Below, piece after piece: positions 21,335 to 54,867 of a DNA stretch of 64,000 nt. A program made the position numbers and the translations under genes. The first letter of the stretch is position 1, and each line of letters opens with the position of its first letter. The notes below the pieces were generated by a model that worked only from the letters and a program-made list of their open reading frames with translations, ran no database searches and was not told the origin of the DNA. Origin of the DNA: an uncultured bacterium (GTDB lineage Bacteria > Krumholzibacteriota > Krumholzibacteriia > WVZY01 > JAKEHA01); contig CAZLLI010000004.1 in assembly GCA_964560355.1 (NCBI GenBank), positions 799 through 64,798 of the forward strand, read 5' to 3'.

Positions 21335-24136
21335 ATGTTTCGGAAACTCGGGCTGCTCGCGGTTGCGTGCTTGATGGTCATCCCGACCACAGCCGCCTTG
21401 GCGAGCGACAACCAGGTGGTGCCCACCACCGCCGCATTGGACGTCGACGCTCCCGCGCCGGCGCCGGGGGTGACCCCCGCCAAGAAGCCGGAAGGCATGA
21501 AGCCGCGGCCGTACGCCATCGAGTTGCAGAAGAAACTCAAGAAGCCCGGCCCGCCGCCTCCCAAACCGAAGTTCAAGCCCTGGGACGAGATCGTGACCAA
21601 AGACCACAAGAAGGTCGAAGGTCTCATGACCCTCTACACCAAGGGCGAAGAAGTCCTGCTCCAGATCAGCAAGGACGACCTCGACAAGCCCATGCTCGCG
21701 ATCTTGAGCATCTCGCAGGGCATCGGGTCGAACTTCGTCTACGGTGGTCTTCCCATCGACGACGTCATGTTCGACTTCCACCGCGATGAGGACCACATCC
21801 AGATGCGTCGCCTGACGCAGAACTTCCGCGCCCCCGGCAACGAAGAGCTGCAGCGCGCGCTGAGCCTCACCTTCGCGTCTTCGATCCTGGAGAATTTCGC
21901 GATCAAGACCGAGCGCGACGGCAAGGTCATCATCGACGTGCGCGACTTCTTCCTGTCCGACATCGCCGGCATGAGCATGTATCTCGGCGCGGCGCTGAAC
22001 CAGCCCGTTCGTCTCGACAACAAGAAGGGCTACTTCGGCGGGATCAAGAACTACCCGAGCAACACCGAGATCGACACGCGCCTCACGTATTCGCCCGGCC
22101 GCCCCGAAACGACGTTCCTCCCCAACGTGCCGGACGCGCGCAGCATCCAGCTCGGCGTTGCGTGGAGCATTCGCAAGCTGCCGGAAGAGCCGATGATGCC
22201 GCGCATCGCGGATGACCGCGTCGGTTACTTCACGACCGACTTCAAGGATTTCACCAAGGAGAAGACCGAAAGCTTCTTCACGCACTATGCGAACCGCTGG
22301 CGCTTGGAGAAGAAGGACCCGACCGCGGCCGTCTCCGAGCCCAAGCAGCAGATCGTGTACTACATCGACAACACGGTGCCGAAGGAATACGCGCCGTACA
22401 TGATCGCGGGCGTCAATCTGTGGCAGAAGGCGTTCGAAGCCGCCGGCTTCAAGGACGCGATCGTCGGCAAGATGGCGCCGACCAAGGAAGAGGATCCCAA
22501 CTACGACCCCGTCGACGCGCGCTACAACACCATTCGTTGGAACGTGAACGACCAGGTGTCGTACGGCGCTATCGGACCCTCGCGCGTCGACCCGCGCACC
22601 GGCGAGATCATCGACGCCGACATTCTGTTCGAGCACAACATCGTGCACAACTTCGGCAAGAACTGGCGTCGTGTGGCGGCGCCGCGCACCGCTCTCATGG
22701 AAGTCGACCCCAACTTGAAGCAGTTGTGGATGACGCCGGAAGAGCGCGCGCAGGAACAGGCCGTGTTCAACCTGCCGTACTTCAAGAACCGGCCCTACAT
22801 GTTCTGCCAGATCGACAACTGCATGGGCCTGGGCGCCGAGATGATGCGCCTGTCGATGCTGATCGGCGGCATGATCGACGCCGGCCAGGAAGTTCCGATG
22901 GAGTACATCGGCGCCGCGCTGACGTTCGTCGCGGCGCACGAAGTCGGGCACACGCTCGGCCTTCGTCACAACTTCAAGAGCTCGAGCGCGGTTCCGTACG
23001 ACGAGCTCAACGACAAGTCGAAGATCGACCAGGTCGGCATGACGGGTTCCGTCATGGACTACCCGACGCCGAACATCGCGGCCGACGCGTCGAAGCAGGG
23101 CTACTACTATACGCCGACCGTCGGCACGGGCGACGTGTGGGCGATCACGTGGGGGTACAAGCCGGTCGACGGCGCCACCCCGCAGGAGCAGAGCAAGAAC
23201 CTCGCTTCCATCGCGGGTGAGTGCACCGAGAAGGCCCACCTCTACGGGACCGACGAGGACACCTACCCGATGGGCGCGCTGGATCCTCGCAGCAACACCA
23301 ACGACCTCTCCGACAACCCGATGAAGTGGGCGGACGAGCGCATGTCGATCTGCAACGACCTTCTCATGAGCGGCAAGCTCGAGAATCGCGTCGTGGCGGA
23401 AGGCGACGACTACGTTCCCCTGCGCACGGCCGTGCAGGCCATCTTCGCCCAGAAGTACACCTGCGCGAACATCGCGACCAAGAACATCGGCGGCGCCTAC
23501 ACCGAACGCGCCCACAAGGGCGACGGCAAGGAGCCGTTCACTCCCATCACCTCGGCCGAGCAACGCAAGGCGCTCCAGTTCGTGGTGGACAACGCGCTCA
23601 AGTCGAGCGCGTACGCCCTGTCGCCCGACATGCTGAATAAGATGCAGGACGACAAGATGTGGAGCTGGGAGAACAATCCGTTCGCGCCGGGTCGTCGTTT
23701 CGACTTCCCGCTGTCGGATTGGGTCGAAGCCATGCAGACCGGCATCTTGTTCAACGTCATGAATCCGTACTTGCAGGCGCGCGTCGTCGACAACGCCTAC
23801 AAGACCACCGACGCGTTCAAGCTGTCGGAGCTGTACGGGACGCTGACCAAGACCATCTGGACCGAAAATCTGGCGCCCAACGGCAAGACCGCGGCGTGGG
23901 ATCGCAACCTTCAGCGCGTCTACACCGACATGCTCATCCAGCAGGTCGTGACGCCGTACCCCGTCACCCCGCAAGACGCGGTGGCGCTGTCGCGGCTCAA
24001 CCTGACGCGAATCAAGAGCGCGGCCCAGTCGGGTCTCCAGCGCAAGGGCCTCGACGACGAGACCAACGCGCACTTCATGGAAACGATCGCCCGCGTGGAT
24101 CGTGCCTTGAACGCGAGCCGCGACACGAACTTCTAG
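21335..24136 (+). CDS. Large secreted zinc-dependent metalloprotease (HExxH)
   Basis: The RBS is AGGAGG. A signal peptide is present. The motif 'AAHEVGHTLGLRHNF' places HEVGH at 22937-22951. The overall look matches the DUF5117/DUF4953-type metalloproteases as I recall them. Confidence 0.8.
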   Translation: MFRKLGLLAVACLMVIPTTAALASDNQVVPTTAALDVDAPAPAPGVTPAKKPEGMKPRPYAIELQKKLKKPGPPPPKPKFKPWDEIVTKDHKKVEGLMTLYTKGEEVLLQISKDDLDKPMLAILSISQGIGSNFVYGGLPIDDVMFDFHRDEDHIQMRRLTQNFRAPGNEELQRALSLTFASSILENFAIKTERDGKVIIDVRDFFLSDIAGMSMYLGAALNQPVRLDNKKGYFGGIKNYPSNTEIDTRLTYSPGRPETTFLPNVPDARSIQLGVAWSIRKLPEEPMMPRIADDRVGYFTTDFKDFTKEKTESFFTHYANRWRLEKKDPTAAVSEPKQQIVYYIDNTVPKEYAPYMIAGVNLWQKAFEAAGFKDAIVGKMAPTKEEDPNYDPVDARYNTIRWNVNDQVSYGAIGPSRVDPRTGEIIDADILFEHNIVHNFGKNWRRVAAPRTALMEVDPNLKQLWMTPEERAQEQAVFNLPYFKNRPYMFCQIDNCMGLGAEMMRLSMLIGGMIDAGQEVPMEYIGAALTFVAAHEVGHTLGLRHNFKSSSAVPYDELNDKSKIDQVGMTGSVMDYPTPNIAADASKQGYYYTPTVGTGDVWAITWGYKPVDGATPQEQSKNLASIAGECTEKAHLYGTDEDTYPMGALDPRSNTNDLSDNPMKWADERMSICNDLLMSGKLENRVVAEGDDYVPLRTAVQAIFAQKYTCANIATKNIGGAYTERAHKGDGKEPFTPITSAEQRKALQFVVDNALKSSAYALSPDMLNKMQDDKMWSWENNPFAPGRRFDFPLSDWVEAMQTGILFNVMNPYLQARVVDNAYKTTDAFKLSELYGTLTKTIWTENLAPNGKTAAWDRNLQRVYTDMLIQQVVTPYPVTPQDAVALSRLNLTRIKSAAQSGLQRKGLDDETNAHFMETIARVDRALNASRDTNF

Positions 24137-24155: not shown

Positions 24156-24216
24156 GAAACAAAAAAACTCCCCCGGTCGATTCACTCGGCCGGGGGAGTT
24201 TCGTTTTGGCGCGCAA
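24156..24216. repeat. Direct repeat, left copy (hairpin / bidirectional terminator-like)
   Basis: The sequence is gaaacaaaaaaactcccccggtcgattcactcggccgggggagtttcgttttggcgcgcaa. It has 59/61 identity to 27837-27897. Confidence 0.9.
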
Positions 24217-24221
24217 AATCG

Positions 24222-24250
24222 TGGACACGCTCACGTTGCATCGGTACCAT
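24222..24250 (+). promoter_or_regulatory. Weak promoter candidate (TGGACA-17-TACCAT) implying a leaderless or very short-leader mRNA
   Basis: The hexamers are at 24222-24227 and 24245-24250. The ATG at 24258 is only 7 nt after the -10 element, and there is no clear RBS. Confidence 0.25.
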
Positions 24251-24257
24251 TCCGAAC

Positions 24258-25025
24258 ATGGAATCGCGCGCGCAAGAAGTCGATTGGACGGCGTTGATTG
24301 CCGCAGCTAGGCTGCCGCTCGGTCAACCACTGGCGGCGGTGACCTTTCACCGTGTGTTTGGAACTGCGTCGCGACCGGTGCTCATGACCTGCGACAATGG
24401 CGCTGAATTCGTGATCAAGGGCATGACCCACGATAGGACTTTGGTGACGGAACAGATAGTGGGGCGGCTTGGGCGCGTGATAGGCGCTCCCGTCGCAACG
24501 GTTGAACTGGTCTTTGTGTCTCCGGAGTTGGTGAAGGCTGAGCCCCAGCTGGCACATGTAACGCCTGGTCTGGTTCACGGCTCCAAGTGGATTGCGGATT
24601 GCACCGATAGAAGTGGCGTCGAAGTGAAGTACGCGAACATGTCGGAGAATCGCAATCGATTTGCGCTTCTGAGCGTACTCTACTCATGGGTTAGTGCGCA
24701 GGATCAGCAGTTCATTTACGAAAAGGCAGCTCCTCATCTTGTGTGGTCAGTTGATCACGGGCATTTTTTTCCAGGCGGCCCACGGTGGTCGGTTCAGTCG
24801 CTCACGGGGGTTCCTCCAGCCGTTGTTGACGGGACCTTCGCGGCGTGTGCGCTGACGCCTATTGAAATTGCCGAGGCAGTGGAAGCGCTACGCAGCGTCG
24901 CAGACCACGACATTGCCGCAGCGGTCGCCGCCATTCCTGCAGATTGGGTTTTTACCGCGGCGGAGCGCGAGGCTGTAGCGCGCTACTTGGCACGCCGCCG
25001 ATCAGAACTACTGGCATTCTTGTGA
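24258..25025 (+). CDS. HipA-like / PI3K-PI4K-fold kinase-like protein
   Basis: 'AEFVIKG' (Lys codon 24417-24419) is a candidate ATP-anchoring strand. 'VDHGHFF' (Asp codon 24753-24755) sits where the metal-binding D(F/H)G is expected. 'TEQIVGRLGRVIGAPVATVELV' resembles the HipA-like N-lobe. No profile search was run. Confidence 0.55.
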   Translation: MESRAQEVDWTALIAAARLPLGQPLAAVTFHRVFGTASRPVLMTCDNGAEFVIKGMTHDRTLVTEQIVGRLGRVIGAPVATVELVFVSPELVKAEPQLAHVTPGLVHGSKWIADCTDRSGVEVKYANMSENRNRFALLSVLYSWVSAQDQQFIYEKAAPHLVWSVDHGHFFPGGPRWSVQSLTGVPPAVVDGTFAACALTPIEIAEAVEALRSVADHDIAAAVAAIPADWVFTAAEREAVARYLARRRSELLAFL

Positions 25026-25050
25026 ACCCTCAATCGAAAGGAGGTTGTTG

Positions 25051-25854
25051 ATGCCGACCTTCTACTCCATCGCACAGTACGTCCCAAGCCCTCTGGCCGA
25101 TGAACGCATGAACTTTGCGATCATTGTAGTTGAAGGCGCCGAAGTTCGAATCAGAACAACAACTAACTGGGAGAGGTTGAAGCGCTTCGGCGATGAAGAC
25201 ATTGGATTTCTTCAGGACTTTACTGAGCATCTCCATGCCCAAGCGGACACAGAAAAGTTCCCGCTCTTTCAGCGGGAAGCAGCGCTCGCTTGGCGCGAGG
25301 AAACCATCCGAACGATCTCAAGTGAGTGGAAGAACAGCATCCAAATCACCGAGCCACGAGCATCGCTCAAGTCGGCCGATCAGCTTGTCGAAGAGTTGGT
25401 TACGCAATACTTGAGAGAACGCAAGCGCAAGTCACGTGCGCGGGACAGGAGAGCAGTGGTAAGTAAGGCGTGGTCAATACTGGAAACGAAAGCGGTAAGC
25501 ATGCGGTTGCCCTATACCAAGCTCGTGCGACGGGAGATCGTGGTCGGAGGAGTCGACAAACATCGGTTTGACATTCTTGGGCAAAATGGGTCGCTGCGTT
25601 TTGCGGCTCAAGGCCTGTCGTTTGAAGTTCCAGCTGCTCTAGAAATGGAGTCTGTGGCATGGGCGGTGGACGATGTGAGGAAGTCAGCGCCCAATTTGCC
25701 GATTTCAATTCTCTACATGCCGCCGAAAGAAACAGATGGGACGAGTGACGTTTTCGAGCGCGCTGCAAGAATATTCCCGGCGCTCGGAGCCGAATTTGTC
25801 CCTGAACTTCAAATCGAGGATTGGGCCACTCGCACGCTACAAAGCCTCAGGTAA
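25051..25854 (+). CDS. DUF3037-like protein
   Basis: ATG at 25051 is 6 nt after AAAGGAGG (25037-25044). The N-terminus 'FYSIAQYVPSPLADERMNFAIIVVEG' matches the DUF3037 signature as I remember it (Y..lryvPd..rgE..N.G.vl). Confidence 0.6.
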   Translation: MPTFYSIAQYVPSPLADERMNFAIIVVEGAEVRIRTTTNWERLKRFGDEDIGFLQDFTEHLHAQADTEKFPLFQREAALAWREETIRTISSEWKNSIQITEPRASLKSADQLVEELVTQYLRERKRKSRARDRRAVVSKAWSILETKAVSMRLPYTKLVRREIVVGGVDKHRFDILGQNGSLRFAAQGLSFEVPAALEMESVAWAVDDVRKSAPNLPISILYMPPKETDGTSDVFERAARIFPALGAEFVPELQIEDWATRTLQSLR

Positions 25855-25887
25855 GAACCGCTGCTTGTAGGTCAAATCAAGCAAGCG

Positions 25888-25926
25888 AAAACTCCCCCGG
25901 TAGGTTCGTTCGACCGGGGGAGTTTG
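25888..25926. repeat. Internal third copy of the hairpin stem (terminator-like)
   Basis: In aaaactcccccggt-aggttcgttc-gaccgggggagttt, the arms ACTCCCCCGG / CCGGGGGAGT are identical to both flanking repeats. The loop and flanks differ. Confidence 0.8.
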
Positions 25927-26012
25927 TTCTAATCTGGACACTCGCGGTGATCGTCGCTAGCATCAGCGGCGACACAAGTAAACGACCTGTTGGTGGGGAG
26001 GCGACAAACTGG

Positions 26013-27830
26013 ATGAAACCACCGCGACTAGGCAAATGGAAAAACCTTGAGGCGACTAGCGGCTTGCTTATCTTTGCCCAGGTTCTAGAGGAAATGCTCT
26101 TTAGCCACACCATTGATTCATATAAGGCATCCGCGCTCAACGTACACACAAACACCATCGAACTTGCCTTCCTCGTCTCACAGGCCAGGCTTGGACGTGT
26201 GCGCGCGGGTGCGGTCGTGCCAGTAGCACGAGAACTCGAACGTCGAATGCGCGGGCCGTCGGTAGGTCGCGTTATTGGCCGGGCGGTGGCGCATGCGTAC
26301 GCATCGGACTTGGCGCACGCCGCGTCACGCGCGGAGAACGCGGTTCGCTCGGGAGAATTCAAGCAAGTTACGGAAGCGATAGCATTGGAGCTCGCCGGCC
26401 ACTACTGGCAGTCGCTTCAAGATCTTCTCACTGAACTTGTAAACGATCCAAAGCAAAAGCAAGCCATCGTGCAACTGGCGAACGAATTTGTCGCCGAAGC
26501 GGAGATACAGGGGTATCACCGAAGCTATGTGTACTACGCAACGAGGAGGTTCTTTTTTTCAGACGATGGGGGCCCCGTTGAAATTGTCTCAGCGTCCCAA
26601 ATTGGCGATTTTTTCAGCGAGTACTTCTCCGGCGCGAAGAGAAAGTACAAAGTGATCCTTAGAGGTTCGGAGAAATTCGACGCTCTGGGCAAGTTGGGAT
26701 CACAGCTGGGGCTAGACATTTCCGAAAAGACAGACCAACCGGCTTCCGGTGGGAAAGGGAAGCTCTTTCTTGGCAAGAGTGTGCAGTACCCTCGATTTCT
26801 TACGCAGCGCGGGATCGAAGCTCGCGATCCGATGTCCGCGCTCGCGCATGCGAATAGTCTCGTCGAGATGATCGTTAGCACTCGGTGCTTCACGGAACAC
26901 TCCGTCGACCTGAAGTGGCTTCGATCGGGCTTTGTGCAAGATGAGGACACCTCTGAGGACACAATTCTGAAGGAGCTTCCCTCCGCAATGAGCCGAGGAA
27001 TAGTTCGGCTCGGCGGCCCCGGCGAGACAGACGTCAAGGACGCAATAGAGGTATTCGCTATCGAACACTTGACTGATGAAGCGTCTCATTTCCTGGCGAA
27101 GGCACTGGAGTATCACCGTGCCGCGCTGGAGATGGAGACGGCAGAAAACCAACTCCTCGATCTGTGGGCTGCATTGGAGGGTTTCCTGCCGGCCCCCGAC
27201 GACGACGGCGCGCGAATAACGCAGTATGTCTCCTACATTACGCCCCCGCTTAACCTAACATACACTCACAAGATCATGCGTTACGCATTGAAATGCCTCC
27301 TCGCCGAAGGGACGCGCGTGCGGGAGACAATCGCGAGTGTACCTATCAGTGGCGACATGGTTGCCAAAACGTGCTGTCTTCTCGTGTCTTCGGATGAGGC
27401 CACGCGTCGTGGGACCCTTTACGAGCAATTGGATCGAAATCCATTGCTACGGTTTCGCTGCTGGACGATTCACGAGCGCTTCAGTTCGTCCCATCGAGTC
27501 AAGACCTCGATCCTTGAGCACAAGGAGCGCATAGAATGGCACCTGCAGAGGATATATTCCACTCGCAATCAGATCGCGCACAGTGCCGAGGCCTTGCCGT
27601 ACCTGGATACTCTTGTTGAGAATCTGCATTCGTATTTGGACGTGCTAATACTTAGCGTTGTTCGCATCGCGACACAGGCGCGTGTTCGATGCTCCGTGGC
27701 GAGCGTTCTGAAGCTGCTCGCGATACGCGAGTCCGTAATGCTCGATGAGCTTGGCCGAAAGGATGTAGCATGTTCGAATGCAACGTTTCGCTCGATTGTG
27801 TATGGAGACAAGAACCCCTTAGTCTACTAG
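26013..27830 (+). CDS. Large protein with C-terminal HEPN-like domain (Rx4H), N-terminal ~450 aa unassigned
   Basis: The motif 'YSTRNQIAHS' (R-N-Q-I-A-H encoded at 27564-27581) lies within a predicted helical C-terminal region. The start is chosen at ATG 26013, after the hairpin and following GGGGAGG (25995-26001). The 25821 ORF start would run through the hairpin and overlap the previous gene. Confidence 0.55.
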   Translation: MKPPRLGKWKNLEATSGLLIFAQVLEEMLFSHTIDSYKASALNVHTNTIELAFLVSQARLGRVRAGAVVPVARELERRMRGPSVGRVIGRAVAHAYASDLAHAASRAENAVRSGEFKQVTEAIALELAGHYWQSLQDLLTELVNDPKQKQAIVQLANEFVAEAEIQGYHRSYVYYATRRFFFSDDGGPVEIVSASQIGDFFSEYFSGAKRKYKVILRGSEKFDALGKLGSQLGLDISEKTDQPASGGKGKLFLGKSVQYPRFLTQRGIEARDPMSALAHANSLVEMIVSTRCFTEHSVDLKWLRSGFVQDEDTSEDTILKELPSAMSRGIVRLGGPGETDVKDAIEVFAIEHLTDEASHFLAKALEYHRAALEMETAENQLLDLWAALEGFLPAPDDDGARITQYVSYITPPLNLTYTHKIMRYALKCLLAEGTRVRETIASVPISGDMVAKTCCLLVSSDEATRRGTLYEQLDRNPLLRFRCWTIHERFSSSHRVKTSILEHKERIEWHLQRIYSTRNQIAHSAEALPYLDTLVENLHSYLDVLILSVVRIATQARVRCSVASVLKLLAIRESVMLDELGRKDVACSNATFRSIVYGDKNPLVY

Positions 27831-27836
27831 TCTATT

Positions 27837-27897
27837 GAAACAAAAAAACTCCCCCGGCCGATTCACTCGGCCGGGGGAGTTTCGTTTTGGCGCACAA
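27837..27897. repeat. Direct repeat, right copy (hairpin / bidirectional terminator-like)
   Basis: The sequence is gaaacaaaaaaactcccccggccgattcactcggccgggggagtttcgttttggcgcacaa. The T-to-C difference turns a G:U pair in the extended stem into G:C. Confidence 0.9.
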
Positions 27898-27905
27898 GTA
27901 CGGCG

Positions 27906-28283
27906 TTACGCCTTGTACTTGCGAAGCCCCGGGGGCAGGTCGTCGCGGCGCGCGACGGACTTCCAGGGTCCGTCGATGCACACGCTCCATTCCCATGCCC
28001 CTTGAACCTTGCGATAGAACTGACCCGCGGTGTAGTAGCAGTCGTCGTAGCCGCTCACCGCGTAGACGTCCATGCGGTCGTCGTAGACCAGCACGACCTT
28101 CGAGTTGCCGTGCTTATCGCGGTAGCCGTACGCGGGCGCGTGGTCGGGCGGACCCGGCTCGTTCTTTTCGACGCCGACGTCGTGCGGCGAACTCTTGCCC
28201 GCGACTTTGGTCGTCGAACAACCGGCCAGCGCGACCGTTCCCGACGCGAGGGCGATGATCATGAGGGTGCGTACTGCGAACAT
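27906..28283 (-). CDS. Small lipoprotein, family not recognised
   Basis: The lipobox is 'VALAGCS'. It is convergent with the island and the metalloprotease gene. Confidence 0.65.
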   Translation of the reverse strand: MFAVRTLMIIALASGTVALAGCSTTKVAGKSSPHDVGVEKNEPGPPDHAPAYGYRDKHGNSKVVLVYDDRMDVYAVSGYDDCYYTAGQFYRKVQGAWEWSVCIDGPWKSVARRDDLPPGLRKYKA

Positions 28284-28397: not shown

Positions 28398-30197
28398 CTA
28401 CTTCGTACCGCGATAGATCACGGTGCTGTTGCCGGTGACGTAGGCGGTCGAGCCGGACGGTGCCCACACGTCGGTGTAGGTGCCGAAGGTGTTGGCGGTG
28501 GAGCGCACCCACGACTCGCCGTCGAAGTTGAAGAAGGCGTCGTTGGTGGTGTTGTTGTTTCGGCCGCCCAAACCGACGACGAAGATGTCGCTGGCGGAGA
28601 CTCCGAACACGGACTCGAGCCCGGATGAGGTGCCGATGCTCTCCGATTTCCAGGTCGAACCGTCGAAGCGAAACGCGTTGGGTTGGCCGGGCGCGCCAGT
28701 GCCGACGGCGTAGATGTTCGACGCCGACGAACCCCACACGCCGCGCAGCGCGATGGTGTTGAGCGTGGTGCTTTCGCTCCAATTGATGCCGTCGTAGTGC
28801 AAGACGAGACCGTCGTTGCCGACGGCGTACACGTTGGTGGGCGACGCGCCCCACACGGCGTGCAGCACTTTGGTGGTGCCGCTCGCTTGCGGGCTCCACA
28901 CGCCGCCGGTCGCGTGCACGATGACGCCGTTGTTGCCGACGGCCCACGCTTCGCCGCCGGTCGCCCATACGCCGTTCAGTCCTTCGGTGGTACCGCTCGT
29001 TGCAGGCGCCCACGTGCCGCCGTCGAAGTATGTGATAACGCCGCCGTCGCCGACCGCGATCACGTTCGACGCCGATGTGCCCCACACGTCGTTCAGTTGC
29101 TCGGGCAATCCGCCGGCCATGAAGTGCCACGCGCCGTTGGTGCGCCGCAGCACCTGCGCGAACGGCCCGACCACGAACACGTCGCTCGCCGACGCGCCCC
29201 AAATTCCGCGGTACACCGCGGTGCCGCCGACGTCGCTCAGTTCCTTCTTCCACTCGGCGCCGTCGTAGCGAATCACGGTGCCGCCGCTCCCCACCGCGAT
29301 CACGTCGTCCGCCGCGGTGCCGGAGATGGCGTCGAAATTTTGCGCGGTGAAGATGTTGGTCTTGAAGCGGTCCCACACCACGCCGTCGAAGTGGAGCATG
29401 ACGCCGACTTCGCCGCACACGAACACGTCGAGGGGCGACGATCCCCACACGCCCGTGAGCGCACGCGTCGCGATTCCGCCGGGCACGGTCATGGTGTTCC
29501 ACGTGTCGACGCCATCGAAGCGAAGTATGGTAGCGCTGCTTCCGGCCGCGAACGCGACGGTGGGAGTGAAGCCGTACACGGCGCGCAGGTTTTCGGTGGT
29601 GGTGGTGTTCTGCGCCGACCACCCGGCTCCGTCGAACGTGAGCACGGTGCCGGAATTTCCGACCGCGAAGGCGCGCGTCGACGACGCGACCCACACGCCG
29701 CGCAAATGCACGCCGGTGTTCGACGTCTCCGCGTTCCACGACACGCCGTCGAAACGCAGAATGGTTCCGCTGTTGCCGACCGCGACGACGTCGTCGGACG
29801 CGGAGCCGAAGACGGCGTTGAGATTCTGCGTGGTGCCCGACGCCATGGCGGAGAAGCCGGTGCCGGTGTCGCGCAGGATGAGTCCGTTCGGACCCACCGC
29901 GAACAGGGTCCCGTCCGATGCGGCCCAGATCGCGTAGATCTCCGACGTGGTGCCGGTCGGGAAGTCGCGCCACAGGGTTCCGTCCCAGTCGATCGAAAGT
30001 CCGCTACCGCCGACCGCGCGTGCGGCGCCGGAAGAAATCGCGACGACGCCGTGCAGCGCGCCGATCTCGGCGCTTTCGGGCACGAACGTGAAGGTCGCGG
30101 GCGGCGGCGGATAGACGGTGCTGTCGTCGCACGCGGTGACCGCGGCGGCGAGCAACAACGCGGCCACGCAACTATGGAGCGATCGTTTCGGCGTCAT
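28398..30197 (-). CDS. Repeat beta-propeller-like lipoprotein (about 14 units of about 40 aa)
   Basis: ATG at 30197 gives the lipobox 'AAAVTACDD'. The recurring unit is 'L..VWG.S..DV.AVG..GTIL.FDG..W'. Confidence 0.7.
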   Translation of the reverse strand: MTPKRSLHSCVAALLLAAAVTACDDSTVYPPPPATFTFVPESAEIGALHGVVAISSGAARAVGGSGLSIDWDGTLWRDFPTGTTSEIYAIWAASDGTLFAVGPNGLILRDTGTGFSAMASGTTQNLNAVFGSASDDVVAVGNSGTILRFDGVSWNAETSNTGVHLRGVWVASSTRAFAVGNSGTVLTFDGAGWSAQNTTTTENLRAVYGFTPTVAFAAGSSATILRFDGVDTWNTMTVPGGIATRALTGVWGSSPLDVFVCGEVGVMLHFDGVVWDRFKTNIFTAQNFDAISGTAADDVIAVGSGGTVIRYDGAEWKKELSDVGGTAVYRGIWGASASDVFVVGPFAQVLRRTNGAWHFMAGGLPEQLNDVWGTSASNVIAVGDGGVITYFDGGTWAPATSGTTEGLNGVWATGGEAWAVGNNGVIVHATGGVWSPQASGTTKVLHAVWGASPTNVYAVGNDGLVLHYDGINWSESTTLNTIALRGVWGSSASNIYAVGTGAPGQPNAFRFDGSTWKSESIGTSSGLESVFGVSASDIFVVGLGGRNNNTTNDAFFNFDGESWVRSTANTFGTYTDVWAPSGSTAYVTGNSTVIYRGTK

Positions 30198-49996: not shown

Positions 49997-52900
49997 CTAC
50001 TTCAGAATCGTCATTTTCTTCGTGTCGGTAAACGAACCCGCCTTCAATTTGTAGAAATATGTCCCACTGGAGACGATTGCTCCATTGTCGTTGCGGCCGC
50101 CCCAAATCACTTTGTACGCCCCGCGCTCACGACGCTCATTGACCAATTCGCGAACCCGACGCCCCGCCACGTCGTAGATCGTGAGCGTGACATGCCTCGC
50201 ATCCTTGATCGAGAACGCCAGGGTCGTCGTGGGATTGAACGGGTTCGGGAAGTTCTGTTCGAGGCGGTCGTGGTACACGCGTGCGACCGCTGGATCGAAC
50301 GACACGCTCAATCCGCCGGACATAGAGGCAACAATCTGGCTGCCCGCGGCTGACTCGAGAAGCACGTCGCCAGTCACGAGTACAAATTCCTCGTCGACAA
50401 CGTCGAATGGTTCGGTGCCCGTGACAGAGAACACGATTTCTCCTAGGTTCGCATCCGAATCCGAGAACGTGTCCGAAACAAGAGCTCCAAAGTACAATTG
50501 CTTTTCGCCATCGCGATCCACCGGCGCGAATGCAACTGTCCCAATGGGACTTTGAGCGGGGCGCCACTCGGCAAATGCAAGGCGGTCGTTGCGTGCTGCC
50601 AACGCGAATAGGGAGGTCGTAACGTCGGAGAAGTTGGCAACGCTAACCCCCACGATGAGCTGATGACTGGTAGCAGTCGGATACTCCTCCGTGAACTGGA
50701 GGCTTACCGACGCATCTGACTGCGTCACCGCCGCCGGAGCGTTCGATGGCCCGTACTGGCTGCCGTGATTATTGTGTGTTCCAAAAACTGAGAAATCCTC
50801 GATGCGGATCTTTCCATCACCATTAAAGTCCCGGCAATCGTTCGGTGGCGCCGGATCCTGTGGATAACCGCCTTGCCCGAAAAGGGCGAAGTCCTGAAGA
50901 TTGACGTTCCCGCTCCCGTTCAGATCGGGCGATCGGAGTGTAACGACGGCCTGAGTTGACAGGGGGTACCCGTTCAGGAGGACGTCGGCTGCATCGCCGT
51001 TCGAACAAATGCAATTCGGCGGAGGCGACGGATTCGCCCGGCCGCCAAACCCTCGGTGCCCAATCTTCGTCGTGTAGTTGGGGGCGGTCGCGGCGCCATC
51101 GGCCATGAGAAGACCGTCCGCGTCGAAGACCGTAGCAACGAGATCCTGTATGTCCAGTCGAAGCTCGTCAGCGGCGATTGTGCGACTCACGACGCCTTCA
51201 TCAAGATCGACACTTATTTCGGTCCGCGAAAGAGTATTCACTGCCGGACACGCGTCGCCCGCCGGGCACGTCGGAACAACACCCGATGGGGAAACCGATA
51301 CTGTTGCATTCGGAACGCACCCAACGTCAAACGCCCCCACTCGCTCGCCGAAATAGCCCTGACTTGGTGTCACGGGCGCAACAGCGGGTGAAGAGGCGTA
51401 GAGTTGATAGTCGCCCGAGCCAGCGCTGCAGAACTGCGGATTCAGATTGTAGACGACTTGACCGTTGGCCTGCCATTCCGCGTCAGTGGGCGATCCGCTC
51501 GCGGAGGCATTCTGGAACACGACGGAGTGCTGCATCGTGGGCGTCCCCGAGACCACCCGAACCGCCGGTCCACCGTTGAACGCAATTACGCACTTGTCGA
51601 CTGCAATCGAGCTGCCTCCCTGCACGATTGTCGCCGACTCGGTGTTGTTCGCGACCGTGCACTTTGTGAGTGAAGCACTGCCCGTTCGCATATCGATGCC
51701 GGTCGCATTGTCGGAAAACAGAGTGCCGTTCGCGGTTACACTTGCATACCCCTCGACGGCGGTCGCGCATCCCGCGAAAACACAATTGGCCAGGGTAACA
51801 GGGGCATAGTTCGACATCGCCAAGGCATCGCCCGTAAACATACAAGCGTCGAACGAACTAGCGCCGGCGAGAATCGAAACTGTCGAGGCGCCACAGTCGA
51901 TGAAACTCGTGGCACTCGCTGTCACTCCCGCCCGTGCGAGAACTGCCGTCGCGCAATCACGGATCTCACACCCGGTCAGCGTCAGCGGGACATAGCTCTC
52001 GATCCCCGTAGACGCATTTTCAAGGACGGTGTGGGAAACGCTCACCGCGCTCCCAGACTCGCACGTGATTCCAACCCAATCACTGTTCGTCCTGGGGCCC
52101 CACGATTCAAAAACGATGGGGTCTTCTTCGGCACCGAAGGCCGTCAATTCGCCAGCCACATTGATCTCGATGCGATTCACGTCAGCGCCCAAAGCGGAAA
52201 GGTCCTCATTGAAAATCTTGACGTGAGTGTCCGCGGCAATCTCAAGCGCTCCTCCTTCCGGCACCGTTACGTCACCCATTACAAAAACATCTCCTTCCCA
52301 TGTACGCAACGCGCCACCGGGTGTGAGAACACCAAACTCGTACTCGTATACAAACGCGTTCAGCGGGTTCGTAAAGAACTCAGGAAATGCGGCGGCGCAT
52401 CCTACTGCAATGACCACAGATCCTATCGAACGCCCGAACTCAGTCACCGTGACCGATGCGCTTACCAGATCACCAACCGTGACTGACGGAGTGAAGGTAA
52501 TTGGTTCGATGAAGACAATATCCTCAGGGTGCAGCTGTAGAGTACCCTCCTTCCTAGAATAACCCAGAACCCACCCGGTCGGGACGATGGCCACCAACGG
52601 AGAATTGTTTGGAACCTGTGCCCGCGCATTTCCACGAATACGAATCTGCAACTCATGCTCAGAATCATCATCAAAGTACTCACCTGCGCGAAATACCATG
52701 TAATCCGTGCCATAGGCGTAGACATCGACGTAGTCCCTTGACAGGTCAGCCGCCACATATATGTCTGTGATGAGCGTCGCGTTGCTCTCGTCAGATGCAC
52801 CTAGTACGAAATCCGGCGGCAGAATCCGGACGTTCCAACAGCCACGACTTCCAACGGGCTGAGGCGGACAGTCAACCGGCGTCATGGGCGTCGCCTCATG

Positions 52901-54079
52901 GGACGTGCAGTTGTCCTGGAAGAAACCGAAGTCTTGAACCGTGTTTACCGGACCAAGCCCGAACTCGGAATCGGCAGTGAACTCTGGCGCATTCGCGAAC
53001 TTTGCCGCGAGGTAGTTCCCAAATACGCGATTCAGTCGATCCTTGTCATTCGTACCACCTACCCAATCGTAGTCGCCGTCCCAGAGAACTTGCGCGAGAT
53101 TCTCCAGCCGCAATCGCTTGTACGATGGCTCCGTGTCGTTCCGGATCCAACGATAGAGGACATCGTCCGTTTCGTCCGATGGATTGCCTTTAAAGACCTC
53201 ATAGAGATAAATCATCCAGGGCTTGTAGACTTGGTACTTTGGTGAAGGAGAACCGAATCGCGGAATGTCACATGGCTCGTTGTCCATGATCGACGCGTCA
53301 TAGGGCAAATCGAAAACCAGAGGACGCCAGCCATCCAGCAGATACTCGGCCAATGTCGATAAGGACTCATTGATTCCGTCGTAACCACCAGAGCCGTTTG
53401 CAGCGAAACATAGATGCTGCAACTCGTGGCCGACAGCCATCGATAGAAAGTCGGCATCGGTTATTGGCGCGCAAGGTACTTCTGGATCGCAAAGATCAGG
53501 ACAAGGGTAGTCAGATGCGTTCAGGATCAGAATGTTGTCGGCTTGACTCGAGGCACCTTGGCAGGCCACGCCGAATGACGGCGGGCATGGGCATGGCAGG
53601 TCCGATGTATCGTAGGCCAGCAGCACTATCTTCGCGTACGTGGTGTAGCCGATTGTGAACTTGACGCCAGCGTACGAATCGTTTTGATCGGCTTCCTCGC
53701 GCATGAAGTAGTTCCATACAATTCCAAAAACATCGTCGTCAGTAATCGTTGTATCATTGTTTGAGATAGATCCGATGACGTCCTCCCACTCACTCTGTGA
53801 CCAACGATTGGAGACGCTATCGCTCACATATAGTTCAAACACCTGATCAAATGCTGGGAACAAGGAGGACACATTGAACTCATTGGGATATGTGCTGATG
53901 TCGCTTCCGAATAGGTGTAAGATATCGCCAAGCGCCGCTGCATAAGCGGCTGTCGAATCGGAAAGCACGCAGAGCGGCATCGGGACTTCTTGGGCCTGCC
54001 CGTTCCTCGCGGCAGGAAGACTTAAGAGAACGAATAGTGGAGTCGCAAAGGAGCGCAAACAAGGAAGACGCCGTTTCAT
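49997..54079 (-). CDS. 1360-aa secreted multidomain protein: HExxH domain, beta-helix repeats, dockerin-like pair, T9SS-type C-terminal domain
   Basis: A signal peptide is present. 'HELQH' is encoded at 53414-53428. A Cys/Ala/Thr-rich repeat region resembles a parallel beta-helix. 'DLNGSGNVNLQDF' and 'DFNGDGKIRIEDF' lie at about 50780-50935. The C-terminus is 'FPNPFNPTTTLAF....LTIYDVAGRRV....GTYFYKL'. GC is much lower than in the flanks. Confidence 0.75.
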   Translation of the reverse strand: MKRRLPCLRSFATPLFVLLSLPAARNGQAQEVPMPLCVLSDSTAAYAAALGDILHLFGSDISTYPNEFNVSSLFPAFDQVFELYVSDSVSNRWSQSEWEDVIGSISNNDTTITDDDVFGIVWNYFMREEADQNDSYAGVKFTIGYTTYAKIVLLAYDTSDLPCPCPPSFGVACQGASSQADNILILNASDYPCPDLCDPEVPCAPITDADFLSMAVGHELQHLCFAANGSGGYDGINESLSTLAEYLLDGWRPLVFDLPYDASIMDNEPCDIPRFGSPSPKYQVYKPWMIYLYEVFKGNPSDETDDVLYRWIRNDTEPSYKRLRLENLAQVLWDGDYDWVGGTNDKDRLNRVFGNYLAAKFANAPEFTADSEFGLGPVNTVQDFGFFQDNCTSHEATPMTPVDCPPQPVGSRGCWNVRILPPDFVLGASDESNATLITDIYVAADLSRDYVDVYAYGTDYMVFRAGEYFDDDSEHELQIRIRGNARAQVPNNSPLVAIVPTGWVLGYSRKEGTLQLHPEDIVFIEPITFTPSVTVGDLVSASVTVTEFGRSIGSVVIAVGCAAAFPEFFTNPLNAFVYEYEFGVLTPGGALRTWEGDVFVMGDVTVPEGGALEIAADTHVKIFNEDLSALGADVNRIEINVAGELTAFGAEEDPIVFESWGPRTNSDWVGITCESGSAVSVSHTVLENASTGIESYVPLTLTGCEIRDCATAVLARAGVTASATSFIDCGASTVSILAGASSFDACMFTGDALAMSNYAPVTLANCVFAGCATAVEGYASVTANGTLFSDNATGIDMRTGSASLTKCTVANNTESATIVQGGSSIAVDKCVIAFNGGPAVRVVSGTPTMQHSVVFQNASASGSPTDAEWQANGQVVYNLNPQFCSAGSGDYQLYASSPAVAPVTPSQGYFGERVGAFDVGCVPNATVSVSPSGVVPTCPAGDACPAVNTLSRTEISVDLDEGVVSRTIAADELRLDIQDLVATVFDADGLLMADGAATAPNYTTKIGHRGFGGRANPSPPPNCICSNGDAADVLLNGYPLSTQAVVTLRSPDLNGSGNVNLQDFALFGQGGYPQDPAPPNDCRDFNGDGKIRIEDFSVFGTHNNHGSQYGPSNAPAAVTQSDASVSLQFTEEYPTATSHQLIVGVSVANFSDVTTSLFALAARNDRLAFAEWRPAQSPIGTVAFAPVDRDGEKQLYFGALVSDTFSDSDANLGEIVFSVTGTEPFDVVDEEFVLVTGDVLLESAAGSQIVASMSGGLSVSFDPAVARVYHDRLEQNFPNPFNPTTTLAFSIKDARHVTLTIYDVAGRRVRELVNERRERGAYKVIWGGRNDNGAIVSSGTYFYKLKAGSFTDTKKMTILK

Positions 54080-54147
54080 TTCTAAACCTCCCCGGGGCTA
54101 AAAATGGCACCTAGCGGAAGAAATCGCAGCAGGCCGCGATGGCCTGA

Positions 54148-54867
54148 TCAGTTTCGGTAGAGCGCTTTGATCGCACCCCACGTTCTGCCTGCTGTGGGCA
54201 CCGGACTACAATCGAATTGTCTGGCGACGCCCTGGAACCCGTGTCCGACCGGACACCCACAGGGGACGCCGCCGGGGGCGCGTATGTGGAGATCGCGTAC
54301 GAAGGCCGCTGCGGGTTGCTCTGCACAGTCAAGCACCTCAACAGTTTCAGCAAGGGGATGAGGAACGACAAGCAGTTTGCTGCAGTTCTCGTCTGTCCCG
54401 CTCGAGAAATACGCGATGGAAGCGACAAGCACGTCACCAGGGATACACGCCCCGTAACAAACAGACAGTCCAGATTGGGAATTTCCTTCGGTGGACAGGA
54501 AAGGATGCGTTTCTGAGAGATACGTCATTGTGGCACCCGGACCGGCCATTACCTTGAAGCGAGACGCAATGGATCCCGGGTTGAACGTGTGCCGGACATA
54601 GATAGTTCGAAGGCCCGGCCCGGACGTATTGGATAGCTGGCATTCATACTGAAACTCACTCGCCGACACCTCGATCGTGTGTGCATGAAGAATCGCCGGT
54701 ACAGTAACGACGATCCAAACCAACACAATGATCCTCACGACACTGACCTTCCCCCGGTTACAAGCAAGCAGCGCCAGAGGAAGGACGAACAGAATGCGTC
54801 TACATCCAACAAGTCTCCCGGATGTTGTCATATGGCTTCTCCCGCGATCAAGCAACCGACGCGGCAA
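54148..54867 (-). CDS. Hypothetical membrane-anchored/secreted protein, no family recognised
   Basis: The ORF is in the low-GC block. It has a hydrophobic N-terminal region and ends 'TWGAIKALYRN'. The start is uncertain between 54867 and 54831. Confidence 0.45.
   Translation of the reverse strand: MPRRLLDRGRSHMTTSGRLVGCRRILFVLPLALLACNRGKVSVVRIIVLVWIVVTVPAILHAHTIEVSASEFQYECQLSNTSGPGLRTIYVRHTFNPGSIASRFKVMAGPGATMTYLSETHPFLSTEGNSQSGLSVCYGACIPGDVLVASIAYFSSGTDENCSKLLVVPHPLAETVEVLDCAEQPAAAFVRDLHIRAPGGVPCGCPVGHGFQGVARQFDCSPVPTAGRTWGAIKALYRN

What the first reader, a model, noticed from the sequence alone, without database searches (positions are those of the whole stretch)
24156..27897. Low-GC insertion flanked by 61-nt direct repeats carrying a kinase / DUF3037 / HEPN trio: candidate uncharacterised defence or toxin system
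Seen: a 3.7-kb block of clearly different composition lies between the stop of the metalloprotease gene (24136, +) and the stop of the convergent lipoprotein gene (27906, -). Hand counts give about 52 % G+C in lines 25081 and 26521, against about 68 % in backbone line 48241. The block is bounded by 61-nt direct repeats (24156-24216 and 27837-27897, 59/61 identical). If the block and one repeat were removed, a single hairpin would remain as a shared bidirectional terminator for the two convergent genes. That is what an insertion with an att-like duplication would leave behind. The cargo is three plus-strand genes: a HipA-like kinase-fold protein, a DUF3037-like protein that follows 25 nt after its stop with a strong RBS, and a 605-aa protein with a C-terminal HEPN Rx4H motif. 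I see no integrase, transposase, phage structural genes or tRNA. Established knowledge: HEPN RNases and HipA kinases are recurrent effectors of toxin-antitoxin and abortive-infection systems, and DUF3037 has no assigned function. I recall from memory, unverified, that DUF3037 genes often sit next to HipA-like kinase genes. Inference: the trio is a mobile conflict module that I cannot match to any named defence system.
Basis: partly seen in the sequence, partly recalled or inferred. Interest (0 to 1): 0.85.

Follow-up and report, generated by a model that had tools for sequence, protein, structure and literature searches.

The report
Two known anti-phage systems in terminator
A 3.7-kb piece of foreign DNA, sitting in the shared terminator between two core genes of an uncultured soil bacterium, carries two separate and already described anti-phage systems (a HipA-like kinase with its DUF3037 partner, and the HEPN RNase ApeA), not one new three-gene system.

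Summary
The 61-nt direct repeats (59/61 identical), the low-GC block (55% vs 65% G+C; GC3 58-62% vs 85-91%) and the three plus-strand genes are all present. Ten related Krumholzibacteriia/Latescibacterota loci show the predicted empty site, with one hairpin between the same two convergent genes.

It splits the block into two transcription units, each with its own promoter-like site and terminator.

- **Unit 1** is a HipA_2 kinase plus a DUF3037 protein. This is the PADLOC candidate PDC-M66, validated as DS-6/"HipAD" and in the Retron-Sda1 operon, where the kinase is the toxin and DUF3037 the neutraliser.
- **Unit 2** is a full-length ApeA homologue (E = 8.6e-41 to the solved Ec2ApeA structure) with the HEPN R-N-x3-H motif intact.

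In other genomes the kinase and DUF3037 genes always travel together. ApeA-like genes always occur without them.

The outer hairpins are copies of the native terminator. The inner one matches a different lineage's version of the same terminator best. This suggests the unit was assembled and exchanged at this locus without a recombinase of its own. That insertion mechanism is the only open and mildly novel point.

Verdict: new members of known kinds, moderate-to-low interest.

The parts
21335..24136 (+). Left flanking core gene: secreted Met-zincin metalloprotease (context, not cargo)
   Evidence: Pfam DUF4953 E = 1.7e-79, plus DUF5117 and DUF5118. Full-length orthologues at 56-87% identity occur in 18 Krumholzibacteriia/Latescibacterota loci.
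24156..24216 (.). Hairpin L: the native bidirectional terminator, left copy of the 61-nt direct repeat
   Evidence: Repeat family D1. 54/54 identical to the single hairpin at the empty site of L001. Folds at -38.9 kcal/mol, z = -6.6.
24222..24250 (+). Promoter-like site P1 (TGGACA-17-TACCAT). The -10 hexamer ends 7 nt before the g1 ATG, so the mRNA may be leaderless.
   Evidence: Consensus scan. Only two such sites occur in 5 kb, and both sit just after a hairpin. Function is inferred, not shown.
24258..25025 (+). g1: HipA_2-family minimal Ser/Thr kinase (255 aa), the predicted toxin/effector of unit 1
   Evidence: PF20613 E = 1e-13. phrog_3162 E = 2.9e-20. hhalign to the validated DS-6A gives 97.6% probability, E = 3.6e-12, with D149 aligned to DS-6A D139. 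K54, D149, Q151 and D166-H167-G168 are invariant in 5 homologues.
25051..25854 (+). g2: DUF3037 protein (267 aa). The DUF3037 domain is N-terminal and a conserved alpha/beta domain is C-terminal. It is the predicted neutralising partner of g1.
   Evidence: PF11236 E = 1.1e-7. GGAGG RBS, 25 nt after the g1 stop. 6 of 6 of its homologues hit PADLOC PDC-M66B over the full length. A g1 homologue lies immediately upstream in 5 of 5 contexts.
25880..25940 (.). Hairpin M: a diverged third copy of the same terminator. It ends unit 1 and precedes unit 2.
   Evidence: Repeat family D1, pattern match. -29 kcal/mol, z = -4.0. Its only blastn hit outside the window is the L003 empty-site hairpin, 42/45, against 34/45 ungapped to native hairpin L (my count by eye on the sequences printed).
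25935..25963 (+). Promoter-like site P2 (TGGACA-17-TAGCAT) for g3. A GGGGAGG RBS lies upstream of the ATG at 26013.
   Evidence: The post-hairpin leaders of the two units share AATC(G)TGGACAC. Local alignment score is 19 against 12.7 +/- 2.1 in shuffles, with 33 of 2000 shuffles as good. This is only suggestive.
26013..27830 (+). g3: ApeA-family HEPN anticodon nuclease homologue (605 aa), a stand-alone defence gene
   Evidence: phmmer to Ec2ApeA 9HXB gives E = 8.6e-41, residues 1-597 against 1-581. PADLOC ApeA E = 1.9e-8. R518/N519/H523 correspond to Ec2ApeA R502/N503/H507. 1450 representative clusters match, mostly about 600 aa and collinear.
27837..27897 (.). Hairpin R: right copy of the 61-nt repeat. 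It terminates g3 and the convergent lipoprotein gene.
   Evidence: 59/61 identical to hairpin L. Together with its right flank it matches L001 at 95% over 63 nt. Terminator-like on the minus strand.
27906..28283 (-). Right flanking core gene: small lipoprotein-like protein (context)
   Evidence: Orthologue adjacent to the metalloprotease gene in 13 loci.

Best explanation
The block is a 3.68-kb horizontally acquired defence islet. It was inserted at the conserved bidirectional terminator between two convergent core genes of a Krumholzibacteriia/Latescibacterota genome. It holds two independent, already described anti-phage systems, each a separate transcription unit bracketed by copies of the terminator hairpin.

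**Unit 1 (g1-g2)** is a PDC-M66/DS-6 ('HipAD')-type pair.
- The roughly 250-aa HipA_2 kinase is the toxic effector.
- The DUF3037 protein binds and neutralises it.
- Phage infection is presumed to release the kinase, which phosphorylates a host target and aborts the infection.
- This mechanism is inferred from homologues and was not tested here.

**Unit 2 (g3)** is an ApeA homologue.
- By analogy with Ec2ApeA it would form an oligomeric HEPN ring and cleave tRNA anticodon loops.
- A small infection-derived ligand bound in a pocket distal to the active site would activate it. For Ec2ApeA that ligand is a 5'-phosphorylated deoxydinucleotide.
- The pocket is only partly conserved here, so the ligand may differ.

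**Insertion.** The segment g1g2-hairpin M-g3 arrived as one pre-assembled unit and left the native hairpin duplicated. The most likely route is short-homology (Campbell-type) recombination between a hairpin carried by the incoming DNA and the resident terminator. The inner hairpin best matches another lineage's version of the same terminator, which suggests the unit was built at this locus in a relative. This last step is inference.
For: **Insertion**
- Empty sites with one hairpin occur in 10 relatives. The closest, L001, has a hairpin 54/54 identical to hairpin L.
- Cargo GC3 is 58-62%, against 85-91% for host genes.
- An independent assembly (L238) is 100% identical over 24605-27888.

**Two units**
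- A third hairpin and two promoter-like sites divide the block.
- All five g2-family contexts have a g1 homologue upstream and no ApeA. All five g3-family contexts lack a kinase or DUF3037 gene.

**Unit 1 identity**
- PF20613 and PF11236 match.
- hhalign to DS-6A gives 97.6% probability, and g1 D149 aligns with DS-6A D139; D139A is the only DS-6 mutant in the paper's strain list, and the text reports that the catalytic mutant loses defence (PMC13092281).
- DS-6A and DS-6B hit PDC-M66A and PDC-M66B. Six of six g2 homologues hit PDC-M66B over the full length.
- Deleting the kinase abolishes defence and deleting DUF3037 is toxic in the Retron-Sda1 operon (PMC12548924).

**Unit 2 identity**
- Full-length match to Ec2ApeA and Ec3ApeA structures, E about 1e-40.
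- The catalytic R-N-x3-H motif is conserved, as are pocket residues E74, S40, Y417, H503, R506 and Y541.
- The ApeA mechanism comes from bioRxiv 10.64898/2026.01.26.701840.

**Unit insertion**
- The near-identical hairpin pair is the outer pair and the diverged copy is inside. Stepwise duplication in place cannot produce this.
Against: **Gene identity**
- g2 itself does not hit PDC-M66B, and g1 hits PDC-M66A only weakly (E = 3.7e-4).
- The g2 family aligns to DS-6B only weakly (48% probability). Unit 1 is therefore a distant branch whose activity is untested.
- g3 is only 24% identical to Ec2ApeA. It lacks Pfam ApeA_NTD1/HEPN_Apea hits.
- Three residues that contact the ligand's 5'-cytosine and backbone (R148, R152, Y469), and most oligomer-interface residues, are not conserved.

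**Insertion route**
- No recombinase, circular junction or donor was found, so the route is conjecture.
- The inner hairpin's preference for the L003 version rests on about 8 positions.

**Assembly**
- The junctions between cargo and host genes are seen only in the one source contig.
Confidence: 0.75

Rival explanations
1. One reading: the kinase, DUF3037 protein and HEPN protein form one three-component system, for example with the kinase or DUF3037 protein regulating the HEPN RNase.
For: The three genes are co-oriented, adjacent and share one pair of near-identical flanking repeats. The same arrangement appears in a second assembly.
Against: - A strong terminator hairpin and a separate promoter-like site lie between g2 and g3.
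- There is no co-occurrence in any of 10 independent homologue contexts.
- ApeA homologues tested alone confer defence (10.64898/2026.01.26.701840).
- The HipA-like kinase/DUF3037 pair works alone (PMC12548924, PMC13092281).
Confidence: 0.04
2. The hairpins are recombination sites of a cassette system that works like integron attC sites or Xer/pdif modules. A recombinase encoded elsewhere would recognise the folded or palindromic terminator and insert or excise promoter-gene-hairpin cassettes one at a time. The locus would then be a two-cassette array.
For: - The layout is hairpin-cassette-hairpin-cassette-hairpin with very tight boundaries and no recombinase in the block.
- Both cassettes begin with AATC(G)TGGACAC directly after a hairpin.
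- The inner hairpin best matches a different lineage's version of the terminator.
- The same intergenic site holds other cargo (a GH15 gene) in L006 and L008.
Against: - The hairpin is the ordinary terminator present once in every relative.
- It has no attC R''/R' consensus (RYYYAAC...GTTRRRY), read directly.
- The cassettes carry their own promoters, unlike integron cassettes.
- No second filled example with defence cargo was found in 13 orthologous loci.
- The leader similarity is only marginal (33 of 2000 shuffles as good).
- Homologues elsewhere are not hairpin-flanked.
- The 9-bp stem core is common in unrelated metagenomic and viral contigs.
Confidence: 0.12
3. The genes are selfish toxin-antitoxin or addiction modules that merely stabilise the islet and give no anti-phage benefit in this host.
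For: HipA-type kinases are classical toxin-antitoxin toxins. Deleting DUF3037 is toxic (PMC12548924). Thr1ApeA showed no defence in E. coli.
Against: Homologous pairs and several ApeA homologues protect against phages experimentally (PMC13092281, PMC12548924, 10.64898/2026.01.26.701840). Homologues sit beside other defence genes or on mobile elements.
Confidence: 0.08
4. Assembly artefact: a low-GC fragment from another organism was stitched into the contig through the shared hairpin k-mers.
For: The block is flanked by 61-nt repeats of the kind that confuse de Bruijn assemblers. The independent contig L238 breaks inside hairpin R.
Against: - L238 carries the R-specific base (GGCCGA) and the inner Krumholzibacteriia-type hairpin joined to the cargo.
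- Hairpins L and R differ at 2 positions.
- The extended hairpin sequence was found only at this locus of this lineage among 240 fetched loci. The cargo must therefore lie next to this terminator in a real genome.
Confidence: 0.03

Closest known systems
ApeA (Gao et al. 2020 single-gene HEPN defence; Ec2ApeA/Ec3ApeA structures 9HXB-9HXJ; bioRxiv 10.64898/2026.01.26.701840)
   Same: - A single protein of about 600 aa, collinear over its full length (1-597 against 1-581).
- The HEPN R-N-x3-H motif sits at the equivalent position.
- The guanine-contacting E74 and several pocket residues are conserved.
- The gene stands alone in all contexts examined.
   Different: - Only 24% identical.
- No Pfam ApeA_NTD1 or HEPN_Apea hit.
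- The equivalents of ligand-contact residues R148, R152 and Y469, and of the decamer-interface residues, differ. Ligand and oligomeric state may therefore differ.
- The host is an uncultured high-GC phylum.
PDC-M66 / DS-6 ('HipAD') / the HipA-like kinase + DUF3037 pair of the Retron-Sda1 operon (PMC13092281, PMC12548924)
   Same: - The same two-gene order, with a kinase of about 250 aa followed by a DUF3037 protein of about 270 aa.
- The same Pfam families.
- The catalytic Asp aligns (D149 with D139).
- The DUF3037 proteins share a two-domain layout, and the g2 family matches PDC-M66B over the full length.
   Different: - Very divergent. g2 itself falls below the PADLOC model, and g1 scores E = 3.7e-4.
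- No retron reverse transcriptase or ncRNA lies nearby.
- The C-terminal domain is not recognisably DUF1829 by sequence.
Canonical HipBA type II toxin-antitoxin system
   Same: A HipA-superfamily kinase acts as a growth-arresting toxin and is neutralised by a protein encoded in the same operon.
   Different: - There is no HipB helix-turn-helix antitoxin.
- The partner is encoded downstream, not upstream.
- The kinase is a minimal core of about 250 aa, without the HipA N-terminal domains.
Integrase-less defence islands at core-gene hotspots (e.g. E. coli pan-genome defence islands, PMC10121019)
   Same: Small defence cargo with no mobility genes sits between conserved core genes, and the site is variably occupied among relatives.
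   Different: The islet sits exactly at a shared terminator and is bracketed and subdivided by copies of that terminator. I did not find this feature described in the papers searched.

Membership tests
ApeA | Single polypeptide of about 600 aa, collinear with characterised ApeA proteins (N-terminal, Mid and split HEPN_ApeA domains) | tested here: met
   phmmer against the PDB: Ec2ApeA 9HXB E = 8.6e-41, residues 1-597 against 1-581; Ec3ApeA E = 4.4e-40. PADLOC ApeA E = 1.9e-8, in register.
ApeA | HEPN catalytic R-x4-H motif (Ec2ApeA R502; the matching His is H507 in the alignment) | tested here: met
   R518, N519 and H523 align to R502, N503 and H507.
ApeA | Pfam ApeA_NTD1 / HEPN_Apea domain models | tested here: not met
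   No Pfam hit at E <= 10. I did not check whether Ec2ApeA or Ec3ApeA hit these models either.
ApeA | Stand-alone gene with no conserved partner | tested here: met
   Five independent contexts show unrelated neighbours.
ApeA | Conserved ligand pocket distal to the active site | tested here: inconclusive
   E74, S40, Y417, H503, R506 and Y541 are conserved. The equivalents of R148, R152 and Y469 are V, N and T. The alignment is uncertain over residues 100-200.
ApeA | Doughnut-shaped decamer or dodecamer; tRNA anticodon cleavage; abortive infection | not testable with these tools
   Interface residues are mostly not conserved. Settling this needs biochemistry or cryo-EM.
PDC-M66 / DS-6 (HipAD) | HipA_2-type minimal kinase with the catalytic Asp | tested here: met
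   PF20613 E = 1e-13. hhalign to DS-6A gives 97.6% probability, with D149 aligned to D139. K54, D149 and the D166-H167-G168 motif are invariant. PADLOC PDC-M66A matches only at E = 3.7e-4.
PDC-M66 / DS-6 (HipAD) | DUF3037 protein encoded immediately downstream on the same strand | tested here: met
   PF11236 E = 1.1e-7. 25-nt spacer with an RBS.
PDC-M66 / DS-6 (HipAD) | Partner protein matches the PDC-M66B model or DS-6B over its full length | tested here: inconclusive
   g2 itself has no hit. Six of six of its homologues (33-40% identical to g2) hit PDC-M66B at about 4-270 of 281 positions, E = 1e-11 to 1e-12 where listed individually. hhalign to DS-6B gives 48% probability and is collinear.
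PDC-M66 / DS-6 (HipAD) | Conserved pairing of the two genes across genomes | tested here: met
   Five of five contexts, including a Calothrix plasmid.
PDC-M66 / DS-6 (HipAD) | Kinase toxicity neutralised by DUF3037; kinase-dependent phage defence | not testable with these tools
   Shown only for homologues (PMC12548924, PMC13092281).
Canonical HipBA | HipB helix-turn-helix antitoxin upstream; full-length HipA of about 440 aa | tested here: not met
   Only 41 nt separate hairpin L from g1, so there is no upstream gene. g1 is 255 aa and matches HipA_2 only.
Integron gene cassette / attC array | attC sites with the R''/R' core consensus, promoterless cassettes, and an IntI integrase or attI nearby | tested here: not met
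   No RYYYAAC...GTTRRRY cores occur in the hairpins (sequence). Both cassettes have promoter-like sites. The flanks are syntenic core genes without an integrase.
Integrase-mediated genomic island | Flanking att direct repeats plus an integrase encoded in the island, often at a tRNA gene | tested here: not met
   The direct repeats are present. No integrase is present, the block holds only three genes, and no tRNA is nearby.

The most novel reading that the evidence does not exclude
The conserved intrinsic terminator may double as an attachment site for defence cassettes that carry no recombinase. Promoter-gene-hairpin units would be inserted, stacked and swapped between Krumholzibacteriia lineages at terminator hairpins. 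A recombinase encoded elsewhere, or hairpin-stimulated template switching, would do this. It would be a cassette platform like integron or pdif modules but built on ordinary terminators.
Probability: 0.12. Interest if true: 0.7.

Novelty: new member of a known kind. Interest (0 to 1): 0.3.

Why it matters
The result extends two recently validated defence families, ApeA and the HipA_2-DUF3037 'HipAD'/PDC-M66 pair, to an uncultured high-GC phylum. The copies are very divergent, which makes them useful for mapping which residues are truly essential. Examples are the partly altered ApeA ligand pocket and the invariant K54, D149 and D166-H167-G168 kinase residues.

It also gives a clean filled-versus-empty-site example of a defence islet that has no mobility genes and sits exactly in a shared terminator. 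If the terminator-copy bracketing recurs elsewhere, it would point to an unrecognised route for moving defence genes. On present evidence it is a single case.

Tried and rejected
1. **Exact-protein look-up of the 269-aa g2 reading.** It found nothing because the database gene call starts 2 codons later.
2. **Collection scans for CTCCCCCGG-N8-20-CCGGGGGAG.** The 9-bp stem core is a common terminator stem in unrelated organisms. Only two metagenome loci (L090, L129) were orthologous, and both were empty sites.
3. **Single-sequence AlphaFold model of g1.** It was unusable (pLDDT 45).
4. **g2 model (pLDDT 72).** Foldseek against the PDB gave nothing significant. The best hit was 1y88 at E = 0.02, which I recall (not checked here) as a restriction-endonuclease-like protein, so the C-terminal fold stays unassigned.
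5. **Hairpin direct repeats around homologues elsewhere.** None were found.
6. **Integron attC reading.** Rejected on consensus and on the presence of promoters.
7. **Stepwise duplication in place.** Rejected because the near-identical hairpin pair is the outer pair.
8. **Last contig look-up, with the lipoprotein.** It returned a 1.1-kb contig that ends at the stop codon and says nothing about the site.
9. **Literature search for 'HipAD' and for terminator-duplication hotspots.** It returned nothing relevant.

Full report
**Observation**

The sequence features are as described.
- The metalloprotease ORF ends at 24136 (+). A convergent 125-aa ORF ends at 27906 (-).
- Between them lie three plus-strand ORFs. 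Two 61-nt direct repeats, 24156-24216 and 27837-27897, are 59/61 identical.
- Each repeat folds into a 16-21-bp G+C-rich hairpin with an A-tract on one side and a T-tract on the other (-37 to -39 kcal/mol, z about -7). This is the form of a bidirectional intrinsic terminator.
- The block 24217-27836 is 55.2% G+C against 65.1% for the rest of the window. GC3 is 58-62% in the three cargo genes and 85-91% in the neighbouring genes.
- There is no tRNA within 10 kb and no Rfam family above threshold.

**Host and empty site**

A genome scan with the metalloprotease returned 18 loci, 14 titled Candidatus Krumholzibacteriia or Latescibacterota/Latescibacteria MAGs and 4 'uncultured bacterium'.
- The gene order S9 peptidase - metalloprotease - lipoprotein - two BNR-like genes is conserved.
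- In L001 (87% amino-acid identity) the two convergent genes are 95 nt apart. They are separated by one hairpin that is 54/54 identical to the left copy in the window.
- The right copy plus its flank matches L001 at 95% over 63 nt.
- L002-L005, L007, L015, L016 and two metagenome contigs (L090, L129) also have one hairpin and no cargo.
- None of the loci encodes a homologue of the three cargo genes.

An independent assembly from a public sequencing run (L238) is 100% identical over 24605-27888. It includes the inner hairpin and the right-copy-specific base, which argues against a chimera.

**The cargo is two systems, not a trio**

The inner hairpin is followed by a second promoter-like site (TGGACA-17-TAGCAT). 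This mirrors the site after the left hairpin (TGGACA-17-TACCAT). These are the only two such sites in 5 kb. The layout is therefore terminator-P-g1-g2-terminator-P-g3-terminator.

Gene neighbourhoods agree.
- All five independent contexts of g2 homologues have a g1 homologue immediately upstream and no ApeA-like gene. These are two pairs of metagenome loci, L027, a Calothrix plasmid, and L237.
- All five independent contexts of g3 homologues lack a kinase or DUF3037 gene.

**Unit 1 (g1-g2)**

- g1 (255 aa) matches Pfam HipA_2 (E = 1e-13) and a phage protein family, phrog_3162 (E = 2.9e-20).
- g2 matches DUF3037 (E = 1.1e-7) in its N-terminal half. It has a conserved C-terminal alpha/beta domain.

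This pairing is now known.
- PADLOC lists it as candidate system PDC-M66.
- DefensePredictor validated it as DS-6 (renamed HipAD), and mutating a predicted catalytic residue of the kinase (D139A is the only DS-6 mutant in the strain list) abolished defence (PMC13092281).
- In the Retron-Sda1 operon, deleting the kinase abolished defence and deleting DUF3037 was toxic (PMC12548924).

I took the DS-6 sequences from the paper's supplement.
- The g1 family aligns to DS-6A with 97.6% probability, and g1 D149 aligns with DS-6A D139.
- K54, D149, Q151 and D166-H167-G168 are invariant in the g1 family.
- DS-6A and DS-6B hit PDC-M66A and PDC-M66B. Six of six g2 homologues hit PDC-M66B over the full length.
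- g2 itself falls below the filter, and g1 scores only E = 3.7e-4.

Unit 1 is thus a distant member of this class. Its mechanism, a kinase toxin held by DUF3037 and released on infection, is inferred from homologues.

**Unit 2 (g3)**

- g3 (605 aa) has no Pfam hit. It matches PADLOC ApeA (E = 1.9e-8).
- Over its whole length it matches the solved Ec2ApeA and Ec3ApeA proteins (E about 1e-40, 24% identity).
- R518/N519/H523 correspond to R502/N503/H507 of Ec2ApeA; R502 is the published catalytic-site residue (R502A abolishes defence).
- The guanine-contacting E74 and pocket residues S40, Y401, H487, R490 and Y525 are conserved. R148, R152 and Y469, and most ring-interface residues, are not.
- Published work shows that ApeA is a single-gene abortive-infection system. 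It forms doughnut-shaped oligomers and cleaves tRNA anticodon loops. In Ec2ApeA it is switched on by 5'-phosphorylated deoxydinucleotides (10.64898/2026.01.26.701840).
- The family is large, with 1450 representative clusters, mostly about 600 aa and collinear.

**How it got there**

- The outer hairpins are near-identical copies of the native version of the terminator.
- Counted without gaps, the inner hairpin is 42/45 identical to the L003 lineage's terminator and 34/45 identical to the native one (my count by eye on the sequences printed). L003 was its only match among 240 fetched loci.
- Because the similar pair is the outer pair, stepwise duplication in place is excluded. The segment g1g2-inner hairpin-g3 most likely arrived as one unit. 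It may have been built at this same locus in a relative. It could have integrated by recombination across the roughly 60-nt hairpin homology.
- No recombinase, donor or circular form was found. The attC consensus is absent.
- The similarity of the two post-hairpin leaders (AATC(G)TGGACAC) is only marginal, with 33 of 2000 shuffles as good.
- Homologues elsewhere are not hairpin-flanked.
- The short stem core is common in unrelated DNA.

A dedicated cassette mechanism therefore remains a low-probability possibility.

**Verdict**

This is a real insertion with a demonstrated empty site. It carries divergent members of two already described anti-phage systems. The 'uncharacterised trio' reading is not supported. 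The only mildly novel element is the bracketing and subdivision of the islet by copies of the terminator.

Noticed in passing
window 49997-54867: A second low-GC stretch (52-57% G+C). It encodes a 1360-aa minus-strand protein with a right-handed beta-helix and a C-terminal type IX secretion sorting domain, plus a 239-aa ORF with no Pfam hit. No flanking repeats were found, and it does not look like defence.
   Followed up: partly
L006 3506-5528 and L008 3150-5191: In two more distant relatives the same intergenic site, just after the hairpin, holds a gene of about 625 aa. From the translation alone it looks like a GH15 glucoamylase/trehalase-type hydrolase; I did not run it against Pfam. The site is therefore variably occupied, and not only by defence genes.
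   Followed up: partly
L010 2360-2742: The intergenic region is 382 nt long and has two different terminator-like hairpins about 200 nt apart. I did not run an ORF listing on this spacer. It could be a scar of lost cargo.
   Followed up: no
L019 1365-11061: An ApeA-like homologue sits in a run of small same-strand genes that includes HEPN_RiboL-PSP, AbiTii, TumE and a MarR-like gene. Repeated intergenic elements of 46 nt and 146 nt are present. This looks like a defence island or a cassette array.
   Followed up: no
L023 4005-7840; L025 1849-7822: HipA_2-DUF3037 pairs lie next to primase/helicase-type modules (Toprim_3 + AAA_25; NrS1-1 pol-like + AAA_25 + HTH_17). The pair may be cargo of small integrative or satellite-like elements.
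   Followed up: no
window 24245-24260: The -10-like hexamer TACCAT ends 7 nt before the g1 ATG, and no Shine-Dalgarno sequence is present. The g1-g2 mRNA may therefore be leaderless.
   Followed up: no
window 28700-28943: Direct repeats with a 117-nt period lie inside the downstream genes that I labelled BNR-like from their translations (no Pfam run). They reflect internal protein repeats and are unrelated to the finding.
   Followed up: no
L028 (Calothrix brevissima plasmid5, AP018212.1 28216-29905): An annotated 'hypothetical' gene pair is a HipA_2-DUF3037 system. It lies next to an integrase, a TIR protein and a type III restriction subunit on a mobilizable plasmid.
   Followed up: partly
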